This document shows, piece after piece, positions 3,001 through 64,000 of a stretch of 64,000 bases of DNA. Position 1 is the stretch's first letter; each line of letters starts with the position of its first letter. Both the position numbers and the translations under genes were made by a program. The notes beneath the pieces are model-generated. The model did no database searches. It was not told the origin of the DNA and saw only the letters and a program-made list of their open reading frames with translations. Origin of the DNA: Eledone cirrhosa (lineage: Eukaryota); assembly GCA_964016885.1 (NCBI GenBank), contig OZ024752.1, positions 34,162,001-34,226,000 on the forward strand, in the 5' to 3' direction.

Positions 3001-5325
3001 ATGTGTTTAACCCTTTCATTACTGTATGTCTAATGAAAGACACTGTCTATGTATTTAATCCTTTCATTACTGTATGAATAATGAAAGACACTGTCTATGT
3101 GTTTAACCCTTTCATTACTGTATGTCTAATGAAAGACACTGTCTATGTCTTTAACCCTTTCATTACTGTATGTCTAATGAAAGACACTGTCTATGTCTTT
3201 AACCCTTTATTTACTGTATTTGTAATGAAAGACACTGTCTATGTGTTTAATCCTTTCATTACTGTATGTCTAATGAAAGACACTGTCTATGGGTTTAACC
3301 CTTTCATTACTGTATGTCTAATGAAAGAAACTGTCTATGTCTTTAACCCTTTCATTACTGTATGTCTAATGAAAGACACTGTCTATGTCTTTAACCCTTT
3401 CATTACTGTATGTCTAATGAAAGACACTGTCTATGTATTTAATCCTTTCATTACTGTATGTCTAATGAAAGACACTGTCTATGTCTTTAACCCTTTCATT
3501 ACTGTATGTCTATTGAAAAACACTGTCTGTGTTTAACCTTTTCATTACTGTATGTCTAATGAAAGACATTGTCTGTGTGTTTAACCCTTTCATTACTGTA
3601 TATCTAATGAAAGACACTGTCTATGTGTTTAATCCTTTCATTACTGTATGTCTAATGATAGACACTGTTTATGTGTTTAATCCTTTCATTACTGTATGTC
3701 TAATGAAAGACACTGTTTATGTGTTTAATCCTTTCATTACTGTATGTCTAATAAAAGGGACTGTCTATGTGTTTAACCCTTTCATTACTGTATGTCTAAT
3801 GAAAGACACTGTCTATGTGTTTAACCCTTTCATTACTGTATGTCTAATGAAAGACACTGTCTATGTATTTAATCCTTTCATGACTGTATGTCTAATGAAA
3901 GACACTGTCTGTGTTTAACTCTTTCATTACTGTATGTCTAATGAAAGACACAGTCTATGTGTTTAATCCTTTCATTACTGTATGTCTAATGAAAGACACT
4001 GTCTATGTGTTTAATCCTTTCATTACTGTATGTCTAATGAAAGACACAGTTTGTGTTTAACCCTTTCATTACTGTATGTCTAATGAAAGACACTGTCTGT
4101 GTGTTTAACCCTTTCATTACTGTATGTCTAATGAAAGACACAGTCTATGTGTTTAATCCTTTCATTACTGTATGTCTAATAAAAGACACAGTCTATGTGT
4201 TTAACCCTTTCATTACTGTATGTCTAATGAAAGACACTGTTTATGTGTTTAATCCTTTCATTACTGTATGTCTAATGAAAGACACTGTCTGTGTGTTTAA
4301 CCCTTTCATTACTGTATGTCTAATGAAAGACACTGTCTGTGTGTTTAACCCTTTCATTACTGTATGTCTAATGAAAGACACAGTCTATGTGTTTAATCCT
4401 TTCATTACTGTATGTCTAATAAAAGACACAGTCTATGTGTTTAACCCTTTCATTACTGTATGTCTAATGAAAGACACTGTTTATGTGTTTAATCCTTTCA
4501 TTACTGTATGTCTAATGAAAGACACTGTCTATGTCTTTAACCCTTTCATTACTGTATGTCTAATGAAAGACACTGTCTGTGTTTAACCCTTCCATTACTG
4601 TATGTCTAATGAAAGACATTGTCTGTCTGTTTAACCCTTTCATTACTGTATGTCTAATGAAAGACACTGTCTGTGTGTTTAACCCTTTCATTACTGTATG
4701 TCTAATGAAAGACACTGTCTATGTGTTTAACCCTTTCATTACTGTATGTCTAATGAAAGACACAGTCTATGTGTTTAACCCTTTCATTACTGTATGTCTA
4801 ATGAAAGACACAGTCTATGTGTTTAATCCTTTCATTACTGTATGTCTAATGAAAGCCCTTTCATTACTGTATTTCTAATGAAAGACACTGTCTATGTGTT
4901 TAATCCTTTCATTACTGTATGTCTAATGAAAGACACTGTCTATGTGTTTAATCCTTTCATTGCTGCATGTCTAACGAAAGACACTGTCTATGTGTTTAAC
5001 CCTTTCATTACTGTATGTCTATTGAAAGACACTGTCTACGTTGAATGCTTTCATTACTGTATGTCTAATGAAAGACACTGTTTATGTGTTTAATCCTTTC
5101 ATTACTGTATGTCTAATAAAAGGGACTGTCTATGTGTTTAACCCTTTCATTACTGTATGTCTAATGAAAGACAATGTCTATGTGTTTAACCCTTTCATTA
5201 CTGTATGTCTAATGAAAGACACTGTCTATGTATTTAATCCTTTCATTACTGTATGTCAAATGAAAGACACTGTCTATGTCTTTAACCCTTTCATTACTGT
5301 ATGTCTAATGAAAGACACTGTCTGT

Positions 5326-50229: not shown

Positions 50230-50512
50230 GCTCTGTTGGATGTGAAATGTTAGTGTGCTTGAATGAAAGAGCAGGAAGGAATTAAGAGGCAGGCTGAGTA
50301 TATGAGGAAGAGAATTCAGTGTGTAAGAGAGAAGTTTGTGCTGATGTTGACATGTGATACATAAGGAGAGTGAATGCTGTTTAAAGAAGGGGTAAACATT
50401 TTAAGTAGATGGAACCTGTGGAAGAAGGGGACTAAGGAAGATGTGGGATGAGGTTGTGAAAAGTAGCCCCAAGAAACTGTATTTCACGAAGGGGCTGACA
50501 CAACACCAAGTG
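50230..50512 (+). mobile_element. Highly decayed RTE-like LINE 3' fragment
   Basis: Degenerate match to the region encoded at 51790-52060 (...GATGGAACCTGTGGAAGAAGGGGACTAAGGAAGATGTGGGATGAGGTTGTGAA, about DGTCGRxxxRKMWDEVV), with stops and frameshifts. Confidence 0.55.
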
Positions 50513-51749: not shown

Positions 51750-52061
51750 ACTTTGTATTTAGGCAAGGCGGGTCTTCTCTATTACTGAGTGCCGCCAAAG
51801 ATCTCGGTCCAGTGACATTGTCTTGGAGAGGTGTAAGTGTGTGAGGTCGGAATTTATCAGCTCGTCCCAGGTTTTTCTTTCTGGGTCTGCCTATTCCGTG
51901 GCTACCGTCTATCTTTATTGCCCTGCACTTTGTTATACAGCTGTCGTCTTTCATGCGCATCACGTGACCATACCAGTGTAGTCTTCTCTCGAGTAAACAA
52001 CATCTGATCCCTCTTATTTCTAATTTTTCCCTTAGTTCGTTTATGCTTTGCCGTTCACGTA
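51750..52061 (-). mobile_element. RTE-clade LINE ORF C-terminal fragment
   Basis: Translates RQSINELREKLEIRGIRCCLLERRLHWYGHVMRMKDDSCITKC...GRPRK. The RRLxWxGHVxR...GRPR motif is typical of RTE ORF C-termini; a frameshift follows. Confidence 0.85.
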
Positions 52062-52571: not shown

Positions 52572-53225
52572 AATTCATAAAACCATAACCCCCAAAACAC
52601 TCCATAATACAATAGACACCTAAACAATTCATAATACCATAGACCCCCAAAACAATTCATAATACCATAGACACCTAAACAATCCATAATACCATAGACC
52701 CCTAAACAATCCATAAAACCATAACCCCTAAACAATCCATAAAACCATAACCCCTAAACAATCCATAATACCATAGACCCCTAAACAATCCATAATACCA
52801 TAACCCCTAAACAATCCATAATACCATAGACCCCTAAACAATCCATAATACCATAACCCCTAAACAATCCATATTACCATAGACCCCTAAACAACCCATA
52901 ATACCATAGACCCCCTAAACAATCCATAATACCATAGACCCCTAAACAATCCATAATACCATAGACCCCTAAACAACCCATAATACCATAGACCCCTAAA
53001 CAATCCATAATACCATAGACCCCTAAACAATCCATAATACCATAACCCCTAAACAACCCATAATACCATAGACCCCTAAACAATCCATAATACCATAGAC
53101 CCCTAAACAATCCATAATACCATAACCCCTAAACAACCCATAATACCATAGACCCCTAAACAATCCATAATACCATAGACCCCTAAACAACCCATAATAC
53201 CATAGACCCCTAAACAATTCATAAT
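52572..53225. repeat. 26/27-bp minisatellite (AAACAATCCATAATACCATAGACCCCT), ~24 copies
   Basis: Seen directly. Confidence 0.95.
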
Positions 53226-54445: not shown

Positions 54446-55127
54446 ATGGAAATGTTTGAAGGTGGTGCCCCAGCATGGCCACAGTCTAATGACAAACACA
54501 TAAGAGAATATGTGTAGATATATATATTATAAATAATATATTACCATAAACTAGAACCATATACTATAATGACAGATCTTACAATGGAAATATTTGAAGG
54601 TGGTGCCCCAGCATGGCCACAGTCTAATGACAAACACATAAGAGAATATGTGTAGATATATATTAGAAATAATATATTCCCATAAACTAGAACCATATAC
54701 TATAATGACAGATCTTACAATGGAAATGTTTGAAGGTGGTGCCCCAGCATGGCCACAGTCTAATGACAAACACATAAGAGAATATGTGTAGATATATATT
54801 ATAAATAATATATTCCCATAAACTAGAACCATATACTATAATGACAGATCTTACAATGGAAATGTTTGAAGGTGGTACCCCAGCATGGCCACTGTCTAAT
54901 GACAAACACATAAGAGAATATGTGTAGATATATATTATAAATAATATATTCCCATAAACTAGAACCATATACTATAATGACAGATCTTACAATGGAAATG
55001 TTTGAAGGTGGTACCCCAGCATGGCCACTGTCTAATGACAAACACATAAGAGAATATGTGTAGATATATATTATAAATAATATATTACCATAGACTAGAA
55101 CCATATACTATAATGACAGATCTTACA
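54446..55127. repeat. 136-bp tandem repeat, 5 copies, each containing a SINE-tail-like segment
   Basis: Units start at 54446, 54584, 54720, 54856 and 54992. Each contains GAAGGTGGTGCCCCAGCATGGCCACAGTCTAATGAC. Confidence 0.95.
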
Positions 55128-55338
55128 ACAAGAATAATCTACTAAACATCCTCTAAGTATGAAGAACAGATGATTTCCCAGGAGTAGATGGACATTAAAA
55201 CATAGACAACAACAACAACAACAACAACAACAGCAGCATCAAACAGTAAAAATACTATCAGAATATAAATAGTAGTTGGCAGTTAAAATATATGATATAT
55301 ACAACATCTATATGATACATATTATTTATGACATATAT

Positions 55339-57043: not shown

Positions 57044-57320
57044 TTTACTATTAGTGAAAGTTTCTCTGGGGAAGAACGCACCTGTCAACATAGGTTAGTG
57101 ATTAGTAACTCTAGAGAAGAAACTAGACACACACAGAAACCTAAGACGGGCCTAGAGAAGCTTAAAGAGCTTTCAAACACTTGACAAGGAGAATGAGGAG
57201 TTAGAAATACATAACATGGTGGACCACTGGGAACTCCAAGAAAACCTAACAAAGACCACAGATGAGGTCTATGGTTGGGAAAAAGGTACCAGCCAGACAG
57301 ATGGTGATGTGGTGGTGGTG
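57044..57320 (+). mobile_element. Decayed RTE-like LINE ORF fragment (end of the AP endonuclease domain to the WWW linker motif)
   Basis: 57062 onward reads FSGEERTCQHRLVISNSR. 57222 onward reads DHWELQENLTKTTDEVYGWEK, then after a 1-nt shift VPARQMVMWWW. The order GEE..QHRLV ... W...L...DEVxG....WW is typical of RTE-type ORFs. Confidence 0.7.
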
Positions 57321-60300
57321 GTGGTGGTTGGGGAAAGGTACCAGGCAGACAGAAGGTGATGTGGTGGTGGTGGTGGTGGTTGGGAAAAAGGTACCAGCCA
57401 GACAGAAGGTGATGTGGTGGTGGTGGTGGTGGTTGGGGAAAAGGTACCAGGCAGACAGAAGGTGATGTGGTGGTGGTGGTGGTGGTGGTGGTTGGGGAAA
57501 AGGTACCAGCCAGACAGAAGGTGATGTGGTGGTGGTGGTTGGGGAAAAGGTACCAGCCAGACAGAAGGTGATGTGGTGGTGGTGGTGGTTGGGGAAAAGG
57601 TACCAGCCAGACAGAAGGTGATGTGGTGGTGGTGTGGTGGTTGGGGAAAGGTACCAGCCAGACAGAAGGTGATGTGGTGGTGGTGGTGGTGGTTGGGGAA
57701 AGGTACCAGCCAGACAGAAGGTGATGTGGTGGTGGTGGTGGTGGTGGTTGGGGAAAAGGTACCAGCAAGACAGAAGGTGATATGTGGTGGTGGTTGGGGA
57801 AAAGGTACCAGGCAGACAGAAGGTGATGTGGTGGTGGTTGTGGAAAAGGTACCAGGCAGACAGAAGGTGATGTGGTGGTGGGGTGGTGGTTGGGGAAAAG
57901 GTACCGGGCAGACAGAAGGTGATGTGGTGGTGGGGTGGTGGTTGGGGAAAAGGTACCAGCCAGACAGAAGGTGATGTGGTGGTGGGGTGGTGGTTGGGGA
58001 AAAGGTACCAGGCAGACAGAAGGTGATGTGGTGGTGGGGTGGTGGTTGGGGAAAAGGTACCAGGCAGACAGAAGGTGATGTGGTGGTGGTGGTTGGGGAA
58101 AAGGTACCAGGCAGACAGAAGGTGATGTGGTGGTGGGGTGGTGGTTGGGGAAAAGGTACCGGGCAGACAGAAGGTGATGTGGTGGTGGGGTGGTGGTTGG
58201 GGAAAAGGTACCAGACAGAAGGTGATGTGGTGGTGGTGGTGGTGGTGGTTGGGGAAAAGGTACCAGCCAGACAGAAGGTGATGTGGTGGTGGTGGTTGGG
58301 GAAAAGATACCAGGCAGACAGAAGGTGATGTGGTGGTGGTGGTGGTGGTGGTTGGGGAAAAGGTACCAGTCAGACAGAAGGTGATGTGGTGGTGGTGGTG
58401 GTGGTTGGGGAAAGGTACCAGCCAGACAGAAGGTGATGTGGTGGTGGTGGTGGTGGTTGGGGAGAAGGTACCAGGCAGACAGAAGGTGATGTGGTGGTGG
58501 TGTGGTGGTTGGGGAAAAGGTACCAGTCAGACAGAAGGTGATGTGGTGGTGGTGTGGTGGTTGGGGAAAAGGTACCAGTCAGACAGAAGGTGATGTGGTG
58601 GTGGTTGGGGAAAAGGTACCAGCCAGACAGAAGGTGATGTGGTGGTGGTGGTGGTGGTTGGGGAGAAGGTACCAGGCAGACAGAAGGTGATGTGGTGGTG
58701 GTGGTGGTGGTGGTTGGGGAAAAGGTACCAGCCAGACAGAAGGTGATGTGGTGGTGGTGGTGGTGGTTGGGGAAAAGGTACCAGCCAGACAGAAGGTGAT
58801 GTGGTGGTGGTGGTGGTGGTGGTGGTTGGGGAAAAGGTACCAGCCAGACAGAAGGTGATGTGGTGGTGGTGGTGGTGGTTGGGGAGAAGGTACCAGGCAG
58901 ACAGAAGGTGATGTGGTGGTGGTGGTGGTGGTGGTTGGGGAAAAGGTACCAGCCAGACAGAAGGTGATGTGGTGGTGGTGGTGGTGGTTGGGGAAAAGGC
59001 ACCAGCCAGACAGAAGGTGATGTGGTGGTGGTGGTTGGGGAAAAGGTACCAGCCAGACAGAAGGTGATGTGGTGGTGGTGGTGGTGGTGGTGGTTGGGGA
59101 AAAGGTACCAGCCAGACAGAAGGTGATGTGGTGGTGGTGGTGGTGGTGGTTGGGGAAAAGGTACCAGGCAGACAGAAGGTGATGTGGTGGTGGTGGTGGT
59201 GGTGGTTGGGGAAAAGGTACCAGCCAGACAGAAGGTGATGTGGTGGTGGTGGTGGTGGTGGTTGGGGAAAAGGTACCAGCCAGACAGAAGGTGATGTGGT
59301 GGTGGTGGTTGGGGAAAAGGTACCAGCCAGACAGAAGGTGATGTGGTGGTGGTGGTGGTGGTTGGGGAAAAGGTACCAGCCAGACAGAAGGTGATGTGGT
59401 GGTGGTGGTGGTTGGGGAAAAGGTACCAGGCAGACAGAAGGTGATGTGGTGGTGGTGGTGGTGGTTGGGGAAAAGGTACCAGGCAGACAGAAGGTGATGT
59501 GGTGGTGGTGGTGGTTGGGGAAAAGGTACCAGGCAGATAGAAGGTGATGTGGTGGTGGTGGTGGTGGTTGGGGAAAAGGTACCAGGCAGACAGAAGGTGA
59601 TGTGGTGGTGGTGGTGGTGGTTGGGGAAAAGGTACCAGGCAGACAGAAGGTGATGTGGTGGTGGTGGTGGTGGTTGGGGAAAAGGTACCAGCCAGACAGA
59701 AGGTGATGTGGTGGTGGTGGTGGTGGTGGTTGGGGAAAAGGTACCAGGCAGACAGAAGGTGATGTGGTGGTGGTGGTGGTCGGGGGAAAAGGTACCAGGC
59801 AGACAGAAGGTGATGTGGTGGTGGTGGTGGTGGTTGGGGAAAAGGTACCAGCCAGACAGAAGGTGATGTGGTGGTGGTGGTGGTGGTTGGGGAAAAGGTA
59901 CCAGCCAGACAGAAGGTGATGAGGTGGTGGTGGTGGTGGTGGTTGGGGAAAAGGTACCAGGCAGACAGAAGGTGATGTGGTGGTGGTTGGGGAAAAGGTA
60001 CCAGGCAGACAGAAGGTGATGTGGTGGTGGTGGTGGTCGGGGGAAAAGGTACCAGGCAGACAGAAGGTGATGTGGTGGTGGTGGTGGTGGTTGGGGAAAA
60101 GGTACCAGCCAGACAGAAGGTGATGTGGTGGTGGTGGTGGTGGTGGTTGGGGAAAAGGTACCAGGCAGACAGAAGGTGATGTGGTGGTGGTTGGGGAAAA
60201 GGTACCAGGCAGACAGAAGGTGATGTGGTGGTGGTGGTGGTTGGGGAAAAGGTACCAGGCAGACAGAAGGTGATGTGGTGGTGGTTGGGGAAAAGGTACC

Positions 60301-63300
60301 AGCCAGACAGAAGGTGATGTGGTGGTGGGGTGGTGGTTGGGGAAAAGGTACCAGCCAGACAGAAGGTGATGTGGTGGTGGTGGTGGTGGTGGTTGGGGAA
60401 AAGGTACCAGCCAGACAGAAGGTGATGTGGTGGTGGTCGGGGGAAAAGGTACCAGCCAGACAGAAGGTGATGTGGTGGTGGTGGTGGTGGTGGTGGTTGG
60501 GGAAAAGGTACCAGGCAGACAGAAGGTGATGTGGTGGTGGTCGGGGGAAAAGGTACCAGGCAGACAGAAAGTGATGTGGTGGTGGTGGTGGTGGTGGTTG
60601 GGGAAAAGGTACCAGGCAGACAGAAGGTGATGTGGTGGTGGTCGGGGGAAAAGGTACCAGCCAGACAGAAGGTGATGTGGTGGTGGTGGTGGTGGTTGGG
60701 GAAAGGTACCAGCCAGACAGAAGGTGATGTGGTGGTGGTGGTGGTTGGGGAAAAGGTACCAGCCAGACAGAAGGTGATGTGGTGGTGGTGGTGGTGGTGG
60801 TTCGGGAAAAGGTACCAGCCAGACAGAAGGTGATGTGGTGGTGGTGGTGGTTGGGGAAAAGGTACCAGGCAGACAGAAGGTGATGTGGTGGTGGTCGGGG
60901 GAAAAGGTACCAGCCAGACAGAAGGTGATGTGGTGGTGGTGGTGGTGGTGGTTGGGGAAAAGGTACCAGGCAGACAGAAGGTGATGTGGTGGTGGTGGTG
61001 GTAGTTGGGGAAAAGGTACCAGGCAGACAGAAGGTGATGTGGTGGTGGTGGTGGTTGGGGAAAAGATACCAGGCAGACAGAAGGTGATGTGGTGTGGTGG
61101 TGGTGGTTGGGGAAAAGGTACCAGCCAGACAGAAGGTGATGTGGTGGTGTGGTGGTGGTTGGGGAAAAGGTACCAGCCAGACAGAAGGTGATGTGGTGGT
61201 GGTGGTGGTGGTTGGGGAAAAGGTACCAGCCAGACAGAAGGTGATGTGGTGGTGTGGTGGTGGTTGGGGAAAAGGTACCAGCCAGACAGAAGGTGATGTG
61301 GTGGTGTGGTGGTGGTTGGGGAAAAGGTACCAGCCAGACAGAAGGTGATGTGGTGGTGGTGGTGGTGGTGGTGGTTGGGAAAAAGGTACCAGGCAGACAG
61401 AAGGTGATGTGGTGGTGGTGGTGGTTGGGGAAAAGGTACCAGGCAGACAGAAGGTGATGTGGTGGTGTGGTGGTGGTTGGGGAAAAGGTACCAGCCAGAC
61501 AGAAGGTGATGTGGTGGTGTGGTGGTGGTTGGGGAAAAGGTACCAGCCAGACAGAAGGTGATGTGGTGGTGTGGTGGTGGTTGGGGAAAAGGTACCAGCC
61601 AGACAGAAGGTGATGTGGTGGTGGTGGTGGTGGTGGTGGTTGGGAAAAAGGTACCAGGCAGACAGAAGGTGATGTGGTGGTGGTGGTGGTTGGGGAAAAG
61701 GTACCAGCCAGACAGAAGGTGATGTGGTGGTGGTGGTGGTTGGGAAAAAGGTACCAGGCAGACAGAAGGTGATGTGGTGGTGGTGGTGGTTGGGGAAAAG
61801 GTACCAGTCAGACTGAAGGTGATGTGGTGGTGGTGGTGGTTGGGGAAAAGGTACCAGTCAGACAGAAGGTGATGTGGTGGTGGTGGTGGTTGGGGAAAAG
61901 GTACCAGCCAGACAGAAGGTGATGTGGTGGTGGTGGTGGTGGTGGTGGTTGGGAAAAAGGTACCAGGCAGACAGAAGGTGATGTGGTGGTGGTGGTGGTT
62001 GGGGAAAAGGTACCAGCCAGACAGAAGGTGATGTGGTGGTGGTGGTGGTTGGGGAAAAGGTACCAGGCAGACAGAAGGTGATGTGGTGGTGGTTGGGGAA
62101 AAGGTACCAGCCAGACAGAAGGTGATGTGGTGGTGGGGTGGTGGTTGGGGAAAAGCTACCGGGCAGACAGAAGGTGATGTGGTGGTGGGGTGGTGGTTGG
62201 GGAAAAGGTACCGGGCAGACAGAAGGTGATGTGGTGGTGGGGTGGTGGTTGGGGAAAAGGTACCGGGCAGACAGAAGGTGATGTGGTGGTGGGGTGGTGG
62301 TTTATGGAAAAGGTACCGGGCAGACAGAAGGTGATGTGGTGGTGGGGTGGTGGTTGGGGAAAAGGTACCAGCCAGACAGGTGATGTGGTGGTGGTGGTGG
62401 TTGGGGAAAAGGTACCAGGTAGACAGAAGGTGATGTGGTGGTGGTTGGGGAAAAGGTACCAGGCAGACAGAAGGTGATGTGGTGGTGGTGGTGGTGGTTG
62501 GGGAAAAGGTACCAGCCAGACAGAAGGTGATGTGGTGGTGGTGGTGGTGGTTGGGGAAAAGGTACCAGCCAGACAGAAGGTGATGAGGTGGTGGTGGTGG
62601 TGGTGGTTGGGGAAAAGGTACCAGGCAGACAGAAGGTGATGTGGTGGTGGTTGGGGAAAAGGTACCAGGCAGACAGAAGGTGATGTGGTGGTGGTGGTGG
62701 TCGGGGGAAAAGGTACCAGGCAGACAGAAGGTGATGTGGTGGTGGTGGTGGTGGTTGGGGAAAAGGTACCAGCCAGACAGAAGGTGATGTGGTGGTGGTG
62801 GTGGTGGTGGTTGGGGAAAAGGTACCAGGCAGACAGAAGGTGATGTGGTGGTGGTTGGGGAAAAGGTACCAGGCAGACAGAAGGTGATGTGGTGGTGGTG
62901 GTGGTTGGGGAAAAGGTACCAGGCAGACAGAAGGTGATGTGGTGGTGGTTGGGGAAAAGGTACCAGCCAGACAGAAGGTGATGTGGTGGTGGGGTGGTGG
63001 TTGGGGAAAAGGTACCAGCCAGACAGAAGGTGATGTGGTGGTGGTGGTGGTGGTGGTTGGGGAAAAGGTACCAGCCAGACAGAAGGTGATGTGGTGGTGG
63101 TCGGGGGAAAAGGTACCAGCCAGACAGAAGGTGATGTGGTGGTGGTGGTGGTGGTGGTTGGGGAAAAGGTACCAGGCAGACAGAAGGTGATGTGGTGGTG
63201 GTCGGGGGAAAAGGTACCAGGCAGACAGAAAGTGATGTGGTGGTGGTGGTGGTGGTGGTTGGGGAAAAGGTACCAGGCAGACAGAAGGTGATGTGGTGGT

Positions 63301-64000
63301 GGTCGGGGGAAAAGGTACCAGCCAGACAGAAGGTGATGTGGTGGTGGTGGTGGTGGTTGGGGAAAGGTACCAGCCAGACAGAAGGTGATGTGGTGGTGGT
63401 GGTGGTTGGGGAAAAGGTACCAGCCAGACAGAAGGTGATGTGGTGGTGGTGGTGGTGGTGGTTCGGGAAAAGGTACCAGCCAGACAGAAGGTGATGTGGT
63501 GGTGGTGGTGGTTGGGGAAAAGGTACCAGGCAGACAGAAGGTGATGTGGTGGTGGTCGGGGGAAAAGGTACCAGCCAGACAGAAGGTGATGTGGTGGTGG
63601 TGGTGGTGGTGGTTGGGGAAAAGGTACCAGGCAGACAGAAGGTGATGTGGTGGTGGTGGTGGTAGTTGGGGAAAAGGTACCAGGCAGACAGAAGGTGATG
63701 TGGTGGTGGTGGTGGTTGGGGAAAAGATACCAGGCAGACAGAAGGTGATGTGGTGTGGTGGTGGTGGTTGGGGAAAAGGTACCAGCCAGACAGAAGGTGA
63801 TGTGGTGGTGTGGTGGTGGTTGGGGAAAAGGTACCAGCCAGACAGAAGGTGATGTGGTGGTGGTGGTGGTGGTTGGGGAAAAGGTACCAGCCAGACAGAA
63901 GGTGATGTGGTGGTGTGGTGGTGGTTGGGGAAAAGGTACCAGCCAGACAGAAGGTGATGTGGTGGTGTGGTGGTGGTTGGGGAAAAGGTACCAGCCAGAC
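57273..64000. repeat. G-rich satellite: TGGGGAAAAGGTACCAG(C/G)CAGACAGAAGGTGATGT(GGT)n, n about 3-8; runs off the right edge
   Basis: Seen directly. Constant ~35-bp core containing a KpnI site plus a variable trinucleotide tract. Confidence 0.99.
59780..64000. repeat. Higher-order duplication in the G-rich satellite, offset 2661-2664 bp
   Basis: Rare variants recur: GAGGTGG 59921/62585, TTCGGG 60801/63462, GTAGTT 61001/63662, AAAAGATACC 61061/63722. Confidence 0.88.

What the first reader, a model, noticed from the sequence alone, without database searches (positions are those of the whole stretch)
57044..64000. G-rich satellite born from the WWW coding motif of an RTE-like LINE
Seen: the unique DNA just before the array translates as ...FSGEERTCQHRLVISNSR...DHWELQENLTKTTDEVYGWEK/VPARQMVMWWW. 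The satellite monomer itself is the last segment, GW(G)KVPARQKVMWWW. Established: RTE-type LINE ORFs carry QHRLV at the end of the endonuclease domain and a WW motif in the linker. Inference: the TGG TGG TGG codons expanded into a (GGT)n tract, and microhomology with the upstream TGGTTGG seeded tandem amplification. A >6.7 kb array thus grew from ~45 bp of LINE coding sequence, with the parent still attached.
Basis: partly seen in the sequence, partly recalled or inferred. Interest (0 to 1): 0.72.

Follow-up and report, generated by a model that had tools for sequence, protein, structure and literature searches.

The report
Minisatellite grown inside a dead LINE
An 8,700-base run of about 169 short G-rich repeats sits inside a broken jumping-gene copy whose sequence resumes right after it, so it likely grew in place from a 44-base piece of that gene; it is a clean but ordinary example of a known way that tandem repeats arise.

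Summary
The array runs 8.7 kb (169 units of 44-59 bp), from window 57272 to about 2 kb past the window end. Both flanks align in order with 24 dispersed, decayed copies of an endonuclease + reverse-transcriptase LINE (RTE-like; clade not tested by phylogeny). The monomer is that family's G-W...WWW segment, and the LINE resumes directly after the array.

This monomer forms an array only here (120 of 120 junction matches). The host copy is 16-25% diverged from its family, while monomer cores differ by 3.4%, so growth came long after insertion. The likely route is a microhomology-mediated tandem duplication at TGG(T), then unequal exchange, including a near-perfect 2.66-kb block duplication. TGG units were gained and lost inside monomers.

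One younger LINE copy carries an independent 39-bp doublet of the same segment. That is 1 doublet against 9,079 intact sites, which does not make a hotspot. The idea that TGG expanded first is not supported.

Transposon-derived minisatellites are well described, and this scan has noted several LINE-born arrays elsewhere in this genome. No function is evident.

The parts
57050..57271 (+). Left piece of a decayed RTE-like LINE ORF (end of endonuclease domain and linker), with 12-bp and about 32-bp deletions, frameshifts and stops
   Evidence: 43 of 268 aligned sites (57050-57318) differ from the majority of 24 copies
57086..57100 (+). QHRLV codons
   Evidence: Q in 117 and H in 120 of 120 homologues
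57272..57282 (+). Left arm (TGGT microhomology within the G-W codons). Its last 9 bases recur exactly at the right end of the array (L031:2979-2987)
57310..57327 (+). TGG tract of the first unit (WWW codons extended to six TGG)
57272..64000 (+). G-rich minisatellite: 169 units of 44-59 bp, pure tracts of 3-8 TGG. It runs past the window to G000:C12:34227988; the LINE then resumes at L031:2988-3300 and again at L031:7835-8078
59783..64000 (+). Internal block duplication of 51 units (2,664 / 2,661 bp); the second copy starts at 62447 and ends beyond the window
   Evidence: 2,660 of 2,661 aligned bases identical, plus one 3-bp gap

Best explanation
The array is a single-locus minisatellite lying in register inside a dead RTE-like LINE fragment, and it likely arose there by a microhomology-mediated tandem duplication of the 44-bp G-W...WWW segment followed by neutral growth. 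Shown: the flanks and monomer are collinear with the family, this monomer is tandem only here, monomers are far more alike than the host copy is to its family, TGG tracts vary in steps of three, and a 2.66-kb block is duplicated. Inferred steps: (1) the LINE inserted and decayed. (2) Slippage or end-joining paired TGG(T) in the G-W codons with TGG(T) in the WWW codons, making a doublet. (3) Unequal exchange or gene conversion amplified and homogenised the units, latterly in multi-unit blocks. (4) The TGG run at each junction gained and lost units by slippage or out-of-register exchange. No coding or other function is indicated.
For: The left flank, the right flank and a third piece 4.5 kb further on follow the LINE protein in order (residues about 190-282, 281-362 and 409-490). 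The monomer core differs from the family majority at only 2 of 24 sites. 120 of 120 junction matches and 133 of 133 dimer matches in the genome lie in this array. Host-copy pieces are 16%, 25% and 24.5% from the family majority, against 3.4% mean pairwise difference among 162 cores. Pure TGG tracts: 3 (10 units), 4 (8), 5 (34), 6 (27), 7 (21), 8 (10); 58 are interrupted. L064 holds an independent in-frame 39-bp doublet of the same segment, joined at TGGA, in a younger copy. Public contigs of one sample (possibly the assembly's own source) show the head-to-tail joint and summed depth about 120-170 times the flank (crude, and the tool warns it is no copy number). The MTD model matches PMC13167724 (abstract and section 10).
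Against: The exact crossover point cannot be fixed: TGG, TGGT and a zero-overlap join all fit. The right end carries 9 bases that the family lacks, so the ends were reworked, or a longer arm existed before the duplication. No unexpanded allele was seen: the three RAD runs of other individuals gave 0, 1 and 0 reads on the left flank, and the one RAD run laid on the right flank gave 0. The 2.66-kb duplication could be an assembly artefact; depth cannot separate 118 from 169 units.
Confidence: 0.85

Rival explanations
1. One reading: the WWW codons first expanded into a longer (TGG)n microsatellite, and that tract then seeded the tandem duplication.
For: WWW does slip in dispersed copies: all 7 sites with a 4th TGG are in LINE copies, one with two extra units. 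Most array units have 5 or more TGG.
Against: This is rare (7 against 9,079 intact). 10 pure three-TGG units remain in the array. The L064 doublet formed with an unexpanded WWW. A junction without overlap adds a fourth TGG by itself.
Confidence: 0.2
2. The array, or a seed of several units, was copied into this LINE copy from another array-bearing copy by ectopic gene conversion, as other notes of this scan propose for other motifs.
For: Internal units are closer to the family majority (4 G, GAA) than the left end unit is. Earlier notes e1-10320923 and e1-8810457 propose copying between sites for other motifs (unchecked).
Against: No other locus holds this junction or dimer. None of the 100 listed non-local matches of a looser pattern (C1 to C4:303 Mb) resembles the monomer. 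None of 24 old copies has a tandem at this site. Divergent end units are expected at array edges. Limit: that pattern matches only 8 of 24 old copies, and 220 non-local matches were not listed.
Confidence: 0.07
3. The array is largely an assembly expansion of a short G-rich repeat.
For: A near-perfect 2.66-kb duplication; no long reads were available.
Against: About 50 distinct unit types in an ordered pattern. Contigs from public runs hold both flanks, the joint and high monomer depth, though they come from one sample that may be the assembly's source.
Confidence: 0.04

Closest known systems
Transposable-element-derived minisatellites of the human genome (Ahmed and Liang 2012, PMC3389668; passages read, which also cite Jurka and Gentles on Alu-derived arrays flanked by short direct repeats)
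   Same: Tandem array of a 10-100 bp piece of a TE, formed after insertion, single locus, with short direct repeats at the ends. That paper finds 23% of human minisatellites TE-derived.
   Different: Here the source is LINE coding sequence, the array reaches 8.7 kb, and each unit carries a variable TGG microsatellite.
Microhomology-mediated tandem duplication (Wei et al. 2026, PMC13167724; abstract, start of the introduction and section 10 read; the Haber and Louis model as cited there)
   Same: A single-copy segment between short arms goes from one to two copies and then expands, mostly neutrally. L064 shows the doublet stage.
   Different: That section reports mostly 2-3 copies; here 169 with block duplication. 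The arm here is only 3-4 bp, and its exact position is ambiguous.
LINE-ORF-derived satellites: PROsat and Pvc20 (L1 ORF2), HinfI (CR1 ORF2) (review PMC9659126; passages and table read)
   Same: Tandem repeat made from LINE coding sequence.
   Different: The review lists those as satellite DNAs; this is one locus with both parental flanks in place. The term RTE had 0 whole-word hits in that review.
SINE-derived satellites of squamates (PMC10702118; abstract and discussion read)
   Same: Arrays with parental retroposon sequence left at one or both ends, homogenised units.
   Different: SINE source and many loci per variant, against one LINE-derived locus here.

Membership tests
TE-derived minisatellite | Head-to-tail units of 10-100 bp | tested here: met
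   169 units of 44-59 bp
TE-derived minisatellite | Unit homologous to a segment present once in dispersed TE copies | tested here: met
   no tandem at this site in 24 old copies
TE-derived minisatellite | TE sequence continues in register on the flanks | tested here: met
TE-derived minisatellite | Copy-number polymorphism between alleles | tested here: inconclusive
   RAD runs of other individuals do not cover the locus
Dispersed (multi-locus) satellite DNA family | Same monomer in arrays at several loci | tested here: not met
   120 of 120 and 133 of 133 matches are local; diverged independent arrays only partly screened
Microhomology-mediated tandem duplication | Short direct arms at both ends of the duplicated segment | tested here: met
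   TGG(T) in the G-W and WWW codons; a 9-bp exact repeat bounds the array; the right-hand 9 bases are absent from the family
Microhomology-mediated tandem duplication | Single-copy ancestral allele observed at the same locus | not testable with these tools
   no relatives held; paralogues used as a proxy
RTE-clade LINE (parent element) | Endonuclease and reverse transcriptase in one ORF | tested here: met
   Younger relative L052, 967 aa: PF14529 (27.2 bits, just under its 27.4 cut-off), RVT_1, PHD; homologue P0001 passes PF03372
RTE-clade LINE (parent element) | No separate ORF1 (single ORF, PMC13295347 passage) | tested here: inconclusive
   only one ORF of 300 aa or more in L052, with 1.4 kb upstream examined; 5' end not defined
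RTE-clade LINE (parent element) | Short 3' UTR ending in a microsatellite-like repeat | tested here: met
   about 290 bp ending in GAT repeats in L052; this is the relative, not the window copy
RTE-clade LINE (parent element) | RT phylogeny groups with reference RTE elements | not tested
   no clade-labelled references among the 120 listed homologues; no tree built

The most novel reading that the evidence does not exclude
Protein-level selection builds a tandem-repeat seed into the element. Tryptophan has one codon, so the near-invariant WWW motif (120, 115 and 119 of 120 homologues) and an upstream G-W keep TGG arms about 39-44 bp apart in active copies. Dead copies then repeatedly duplicate this segment and grow compound mini/microsatellites; the doublet (L064), the +TGG copies and this 169-unit array would be stages of one recurrent hotspot.
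Probability: 0.15. Interest if true: 0.5.

Novelty: new member of a known kind. Interest (0 to 1): 0.22.

Why it matters
It is a tidy natural record of minisatellite birth: both parental flanks, thousands of paralogues as a stand-in ancestor, and an independent doublet of the same segment. It could serve as one data point in a genome-wide study of why this genome turns TE pieces into long arrays. On its own it adds no new mechanism and shows no function.

Tried and rejected
Coding role: unit lengths are mostly not multiples of three and the host ORF is broken. Rejected.

Host gene nearby: 0 Pfam hits in 94 of 98 stop-free stretches of 55 aa or more in the flanks; 4 low-complexity ones were left out. 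Short exons would be missed, so an intronic position is not excluded.

Hotspot: 1 LINE-derived doublet among 56 matches. The other loci examined (L065-L067, L073, L084) showed no LINE protein match. The L052 ORF holds 350 arms of 4 bp or more at 30-60 bp spacing, and the upstream W is present in only 44 of 120 homologues. No control site was searched, so no enrichment is claimed.

G-quadruplex as driver: no three-tetrad motif; G4Hunter-type mean 0.88, with 9% of windows at 1.5 or above. Not needed and not tested.

Length polarity along the array: none (rho -0.12, p 0.11).

One search was too loose (4,030 matches; none of the 100 listed was this monomer).

Unexpanded allele: RAD runs gave no test.

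Look-ups of earlier findings near this place, by sequence and by words returned nothing.

Literature: seven searches were answered. None listed a paper on this array or on a WWW-derived repeat; the library lacks most subscription papers, and no supplements were read.

Full report
Observation. The window is G000:C12:34162001-34226000 of a 3.0-Gb genome. TRF places a tandem array at 57272-64000 with period about 52. The neighbouring stretch L031 shows the array ending at C12:34227988: 8,717 bp and 169 units of 44-59 bp. Each unit has a fixed core and a TGG tract. Pure tracts hold 3 to 8 TGG, and 58 of 168 are interrupted.

What it sits in. The left flank matches dispersed copies at 64-84% identity. 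Aligned as separate rows, the left and right flanks follow 11 such copies in order, and the family passes once through the monomer segment and on into the right flank. A third piece lies 4.5 kb further on, at protein residues 409-490, beyond other inserted repeats. Younger relatives, about 50% identical at protein level to a stop-free piece of an old copy, have long ORFs. L052 (967 aa) carries an endonuclease-RT domain just under its cut-off, RVT_1 and a PHD finger. Its best solved relative is L1 ORF2p, and it ends in a short 3' UTR with GAT repeats. Among the 120 listed homologues (of 463 found), WWW is present in 120, 115 and 119, and QH in 117 and 120. This layout fits RTE-clade LINEs (single ORF and microsatellite tail, PMC13295347 passages; RTE elements are reported from octopus, PMC9115989 and PMC13282606 passages). 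I built no phylogeny, so 'RTE-like' is the supported label.

Single locus, young growth. All 120 genome-wide matches to the junction and all 133 to the dimer pattern lie in this array. These exact patterns speak only for this monomer: the 20-base part matches 0 of 24 old copies. A looser pattern that matches 8 of 24 old copies gave 475 matches. Of these, 155 are local, 100 non-local ones were listed (none like the monomer), and 220 were not seen. The host pieces differ from the majority of 24 old copies by 16%, 25% and 24.5%; one further locus gave no alignment and was dropped. Monomer cores differ from each other by 3.4% (162 cores of 24 bp). A 51-unit block of 2.66 kb is duplicated with one mismatch and one 3-bp gap. 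Contigs of one public sample, possibly the assembly's source, hold both flanks and the head-to-tail joint, with summed monomer depth about 120-170 times the right flank (crude). RAD runs of other individuals gave no test.

Mechanism. The shortest unit (44 bp) is the segment from the TGG(T) in the G-W codons to the end of WWW, with one added A. This is what microhomology-mediated tandem duplication predicts (PMC13167724, abstract and section 10). The crossover point is ambiguous. The array is bounded by a 9-bp exact repeat whose right copy is absent from the family, so the end was reworked or the arm was longer than the family suggests. The left end unit is not ancestral: it has private changes where internal units keep the family state. 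Inferred: later growth by unequal exchange or conversion, with slippage or out-of-register exchange changing the TGG count; I cannot separate these two. On order, younger subfamilies show 9,079 intact WWW sites, 7 with an extra TGG and 1 in-frame 39-bp doublet joined at TGGA with an unexpanded WWW. Duplication therefore does not need prior expansion, and I favour duplication first. One doublet is not evidence of a hotspot: 350 comparable arms exist in the ORF, and no control site was searched.

Context and comparison. Arrays crowd this region. The 82-bp array inside the same broken LINE matches a different dispersed repeat, which has a second array at C12:37.61 Mb. Earlier unchecked notes of this scan describe several other LINE-born arrays in this genome; none matched this sequence. 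TE-derived minisatellites make up 23% of human minisatellites (PMC3389668 passages), and LINE-ORF-derived satellites are listed in PMC9659126 (passages). PMC10702118 (abstract, discussion) describes SINE-derived arrays with parental ends. No supplements were read; TE or tandem-repeat tables in the octopus papers could bear on whether this locus is already annotated.

Verdict. A real and well-preserved example of a known process: new member of a known kind, no sign of function, interest 0.22. The boldest reading left open is a recurrent seed maintained by tryptophan codons (probability 0.15).

Noticed in passing
window 1-43675 and L086 (10 kb upstream): A 48-bp AT-rich satellite of at least 53 kb with long-range repeats. 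One single dispersed match of 56 bp at 80% was seen in L050; origin not established.
   Followed up: partly
L031:4868-7372 (C12:34229868-34232372): An 82-bp x 31 array inside the same broken LINE. The unit and its right flank match an abundant dispersed repeat, and a second array of the same unit lies at C12:37609646-37610464, which suggests recurrence.
   Followed up: partly
L031:3330-4750: A 60/73-bp array inside a repeat ending AAGGGTTAA, inserted in the LINE fragment; the unit matches dispersed copies in L006, L007 and L034. The MITE-like reading is recalled, not tested.
   Followed up: partly
L064 (C1:59162288-59162338, minus strand): An independent in-frame 39-bp tandem doublet of the W...WWW segment in a younger LINE copy.
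   Followed up: yes
L052:1396-4299: A 967-aa LINE ORF with a PHD finger after the RT domain; many of the 120 listed homologues carry PF00628 too. One paper search on this listed nothing specific.
   Followed up: partly
window 52572-53225 and 54446-55128; L085:244-1365 and 3533-4712: Further minisatellites with 27-, 136-, 135- and 58-bp units. Part of the 136-bp unit matches a dispersed short repeat.
   Followed up: partly
window 51770-52060 (minus) and 50230-50500 (plus): 3' ORF remnants of the same LINE family (tblastn).
   Followed up: no
L084 (C7:51235858-51238471) and C4:303397008 onward: Unrelated GGT-rich minisatellites (47-bp and 39/45-bp units) with no match to the LINE protein.
   Followed up: partly
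G000:C20:3927264-5198133: Eight identical-scoring LINE matches about 100-350 kb apart, suggesting a large segmental tandem repeat.
   Followed up: no
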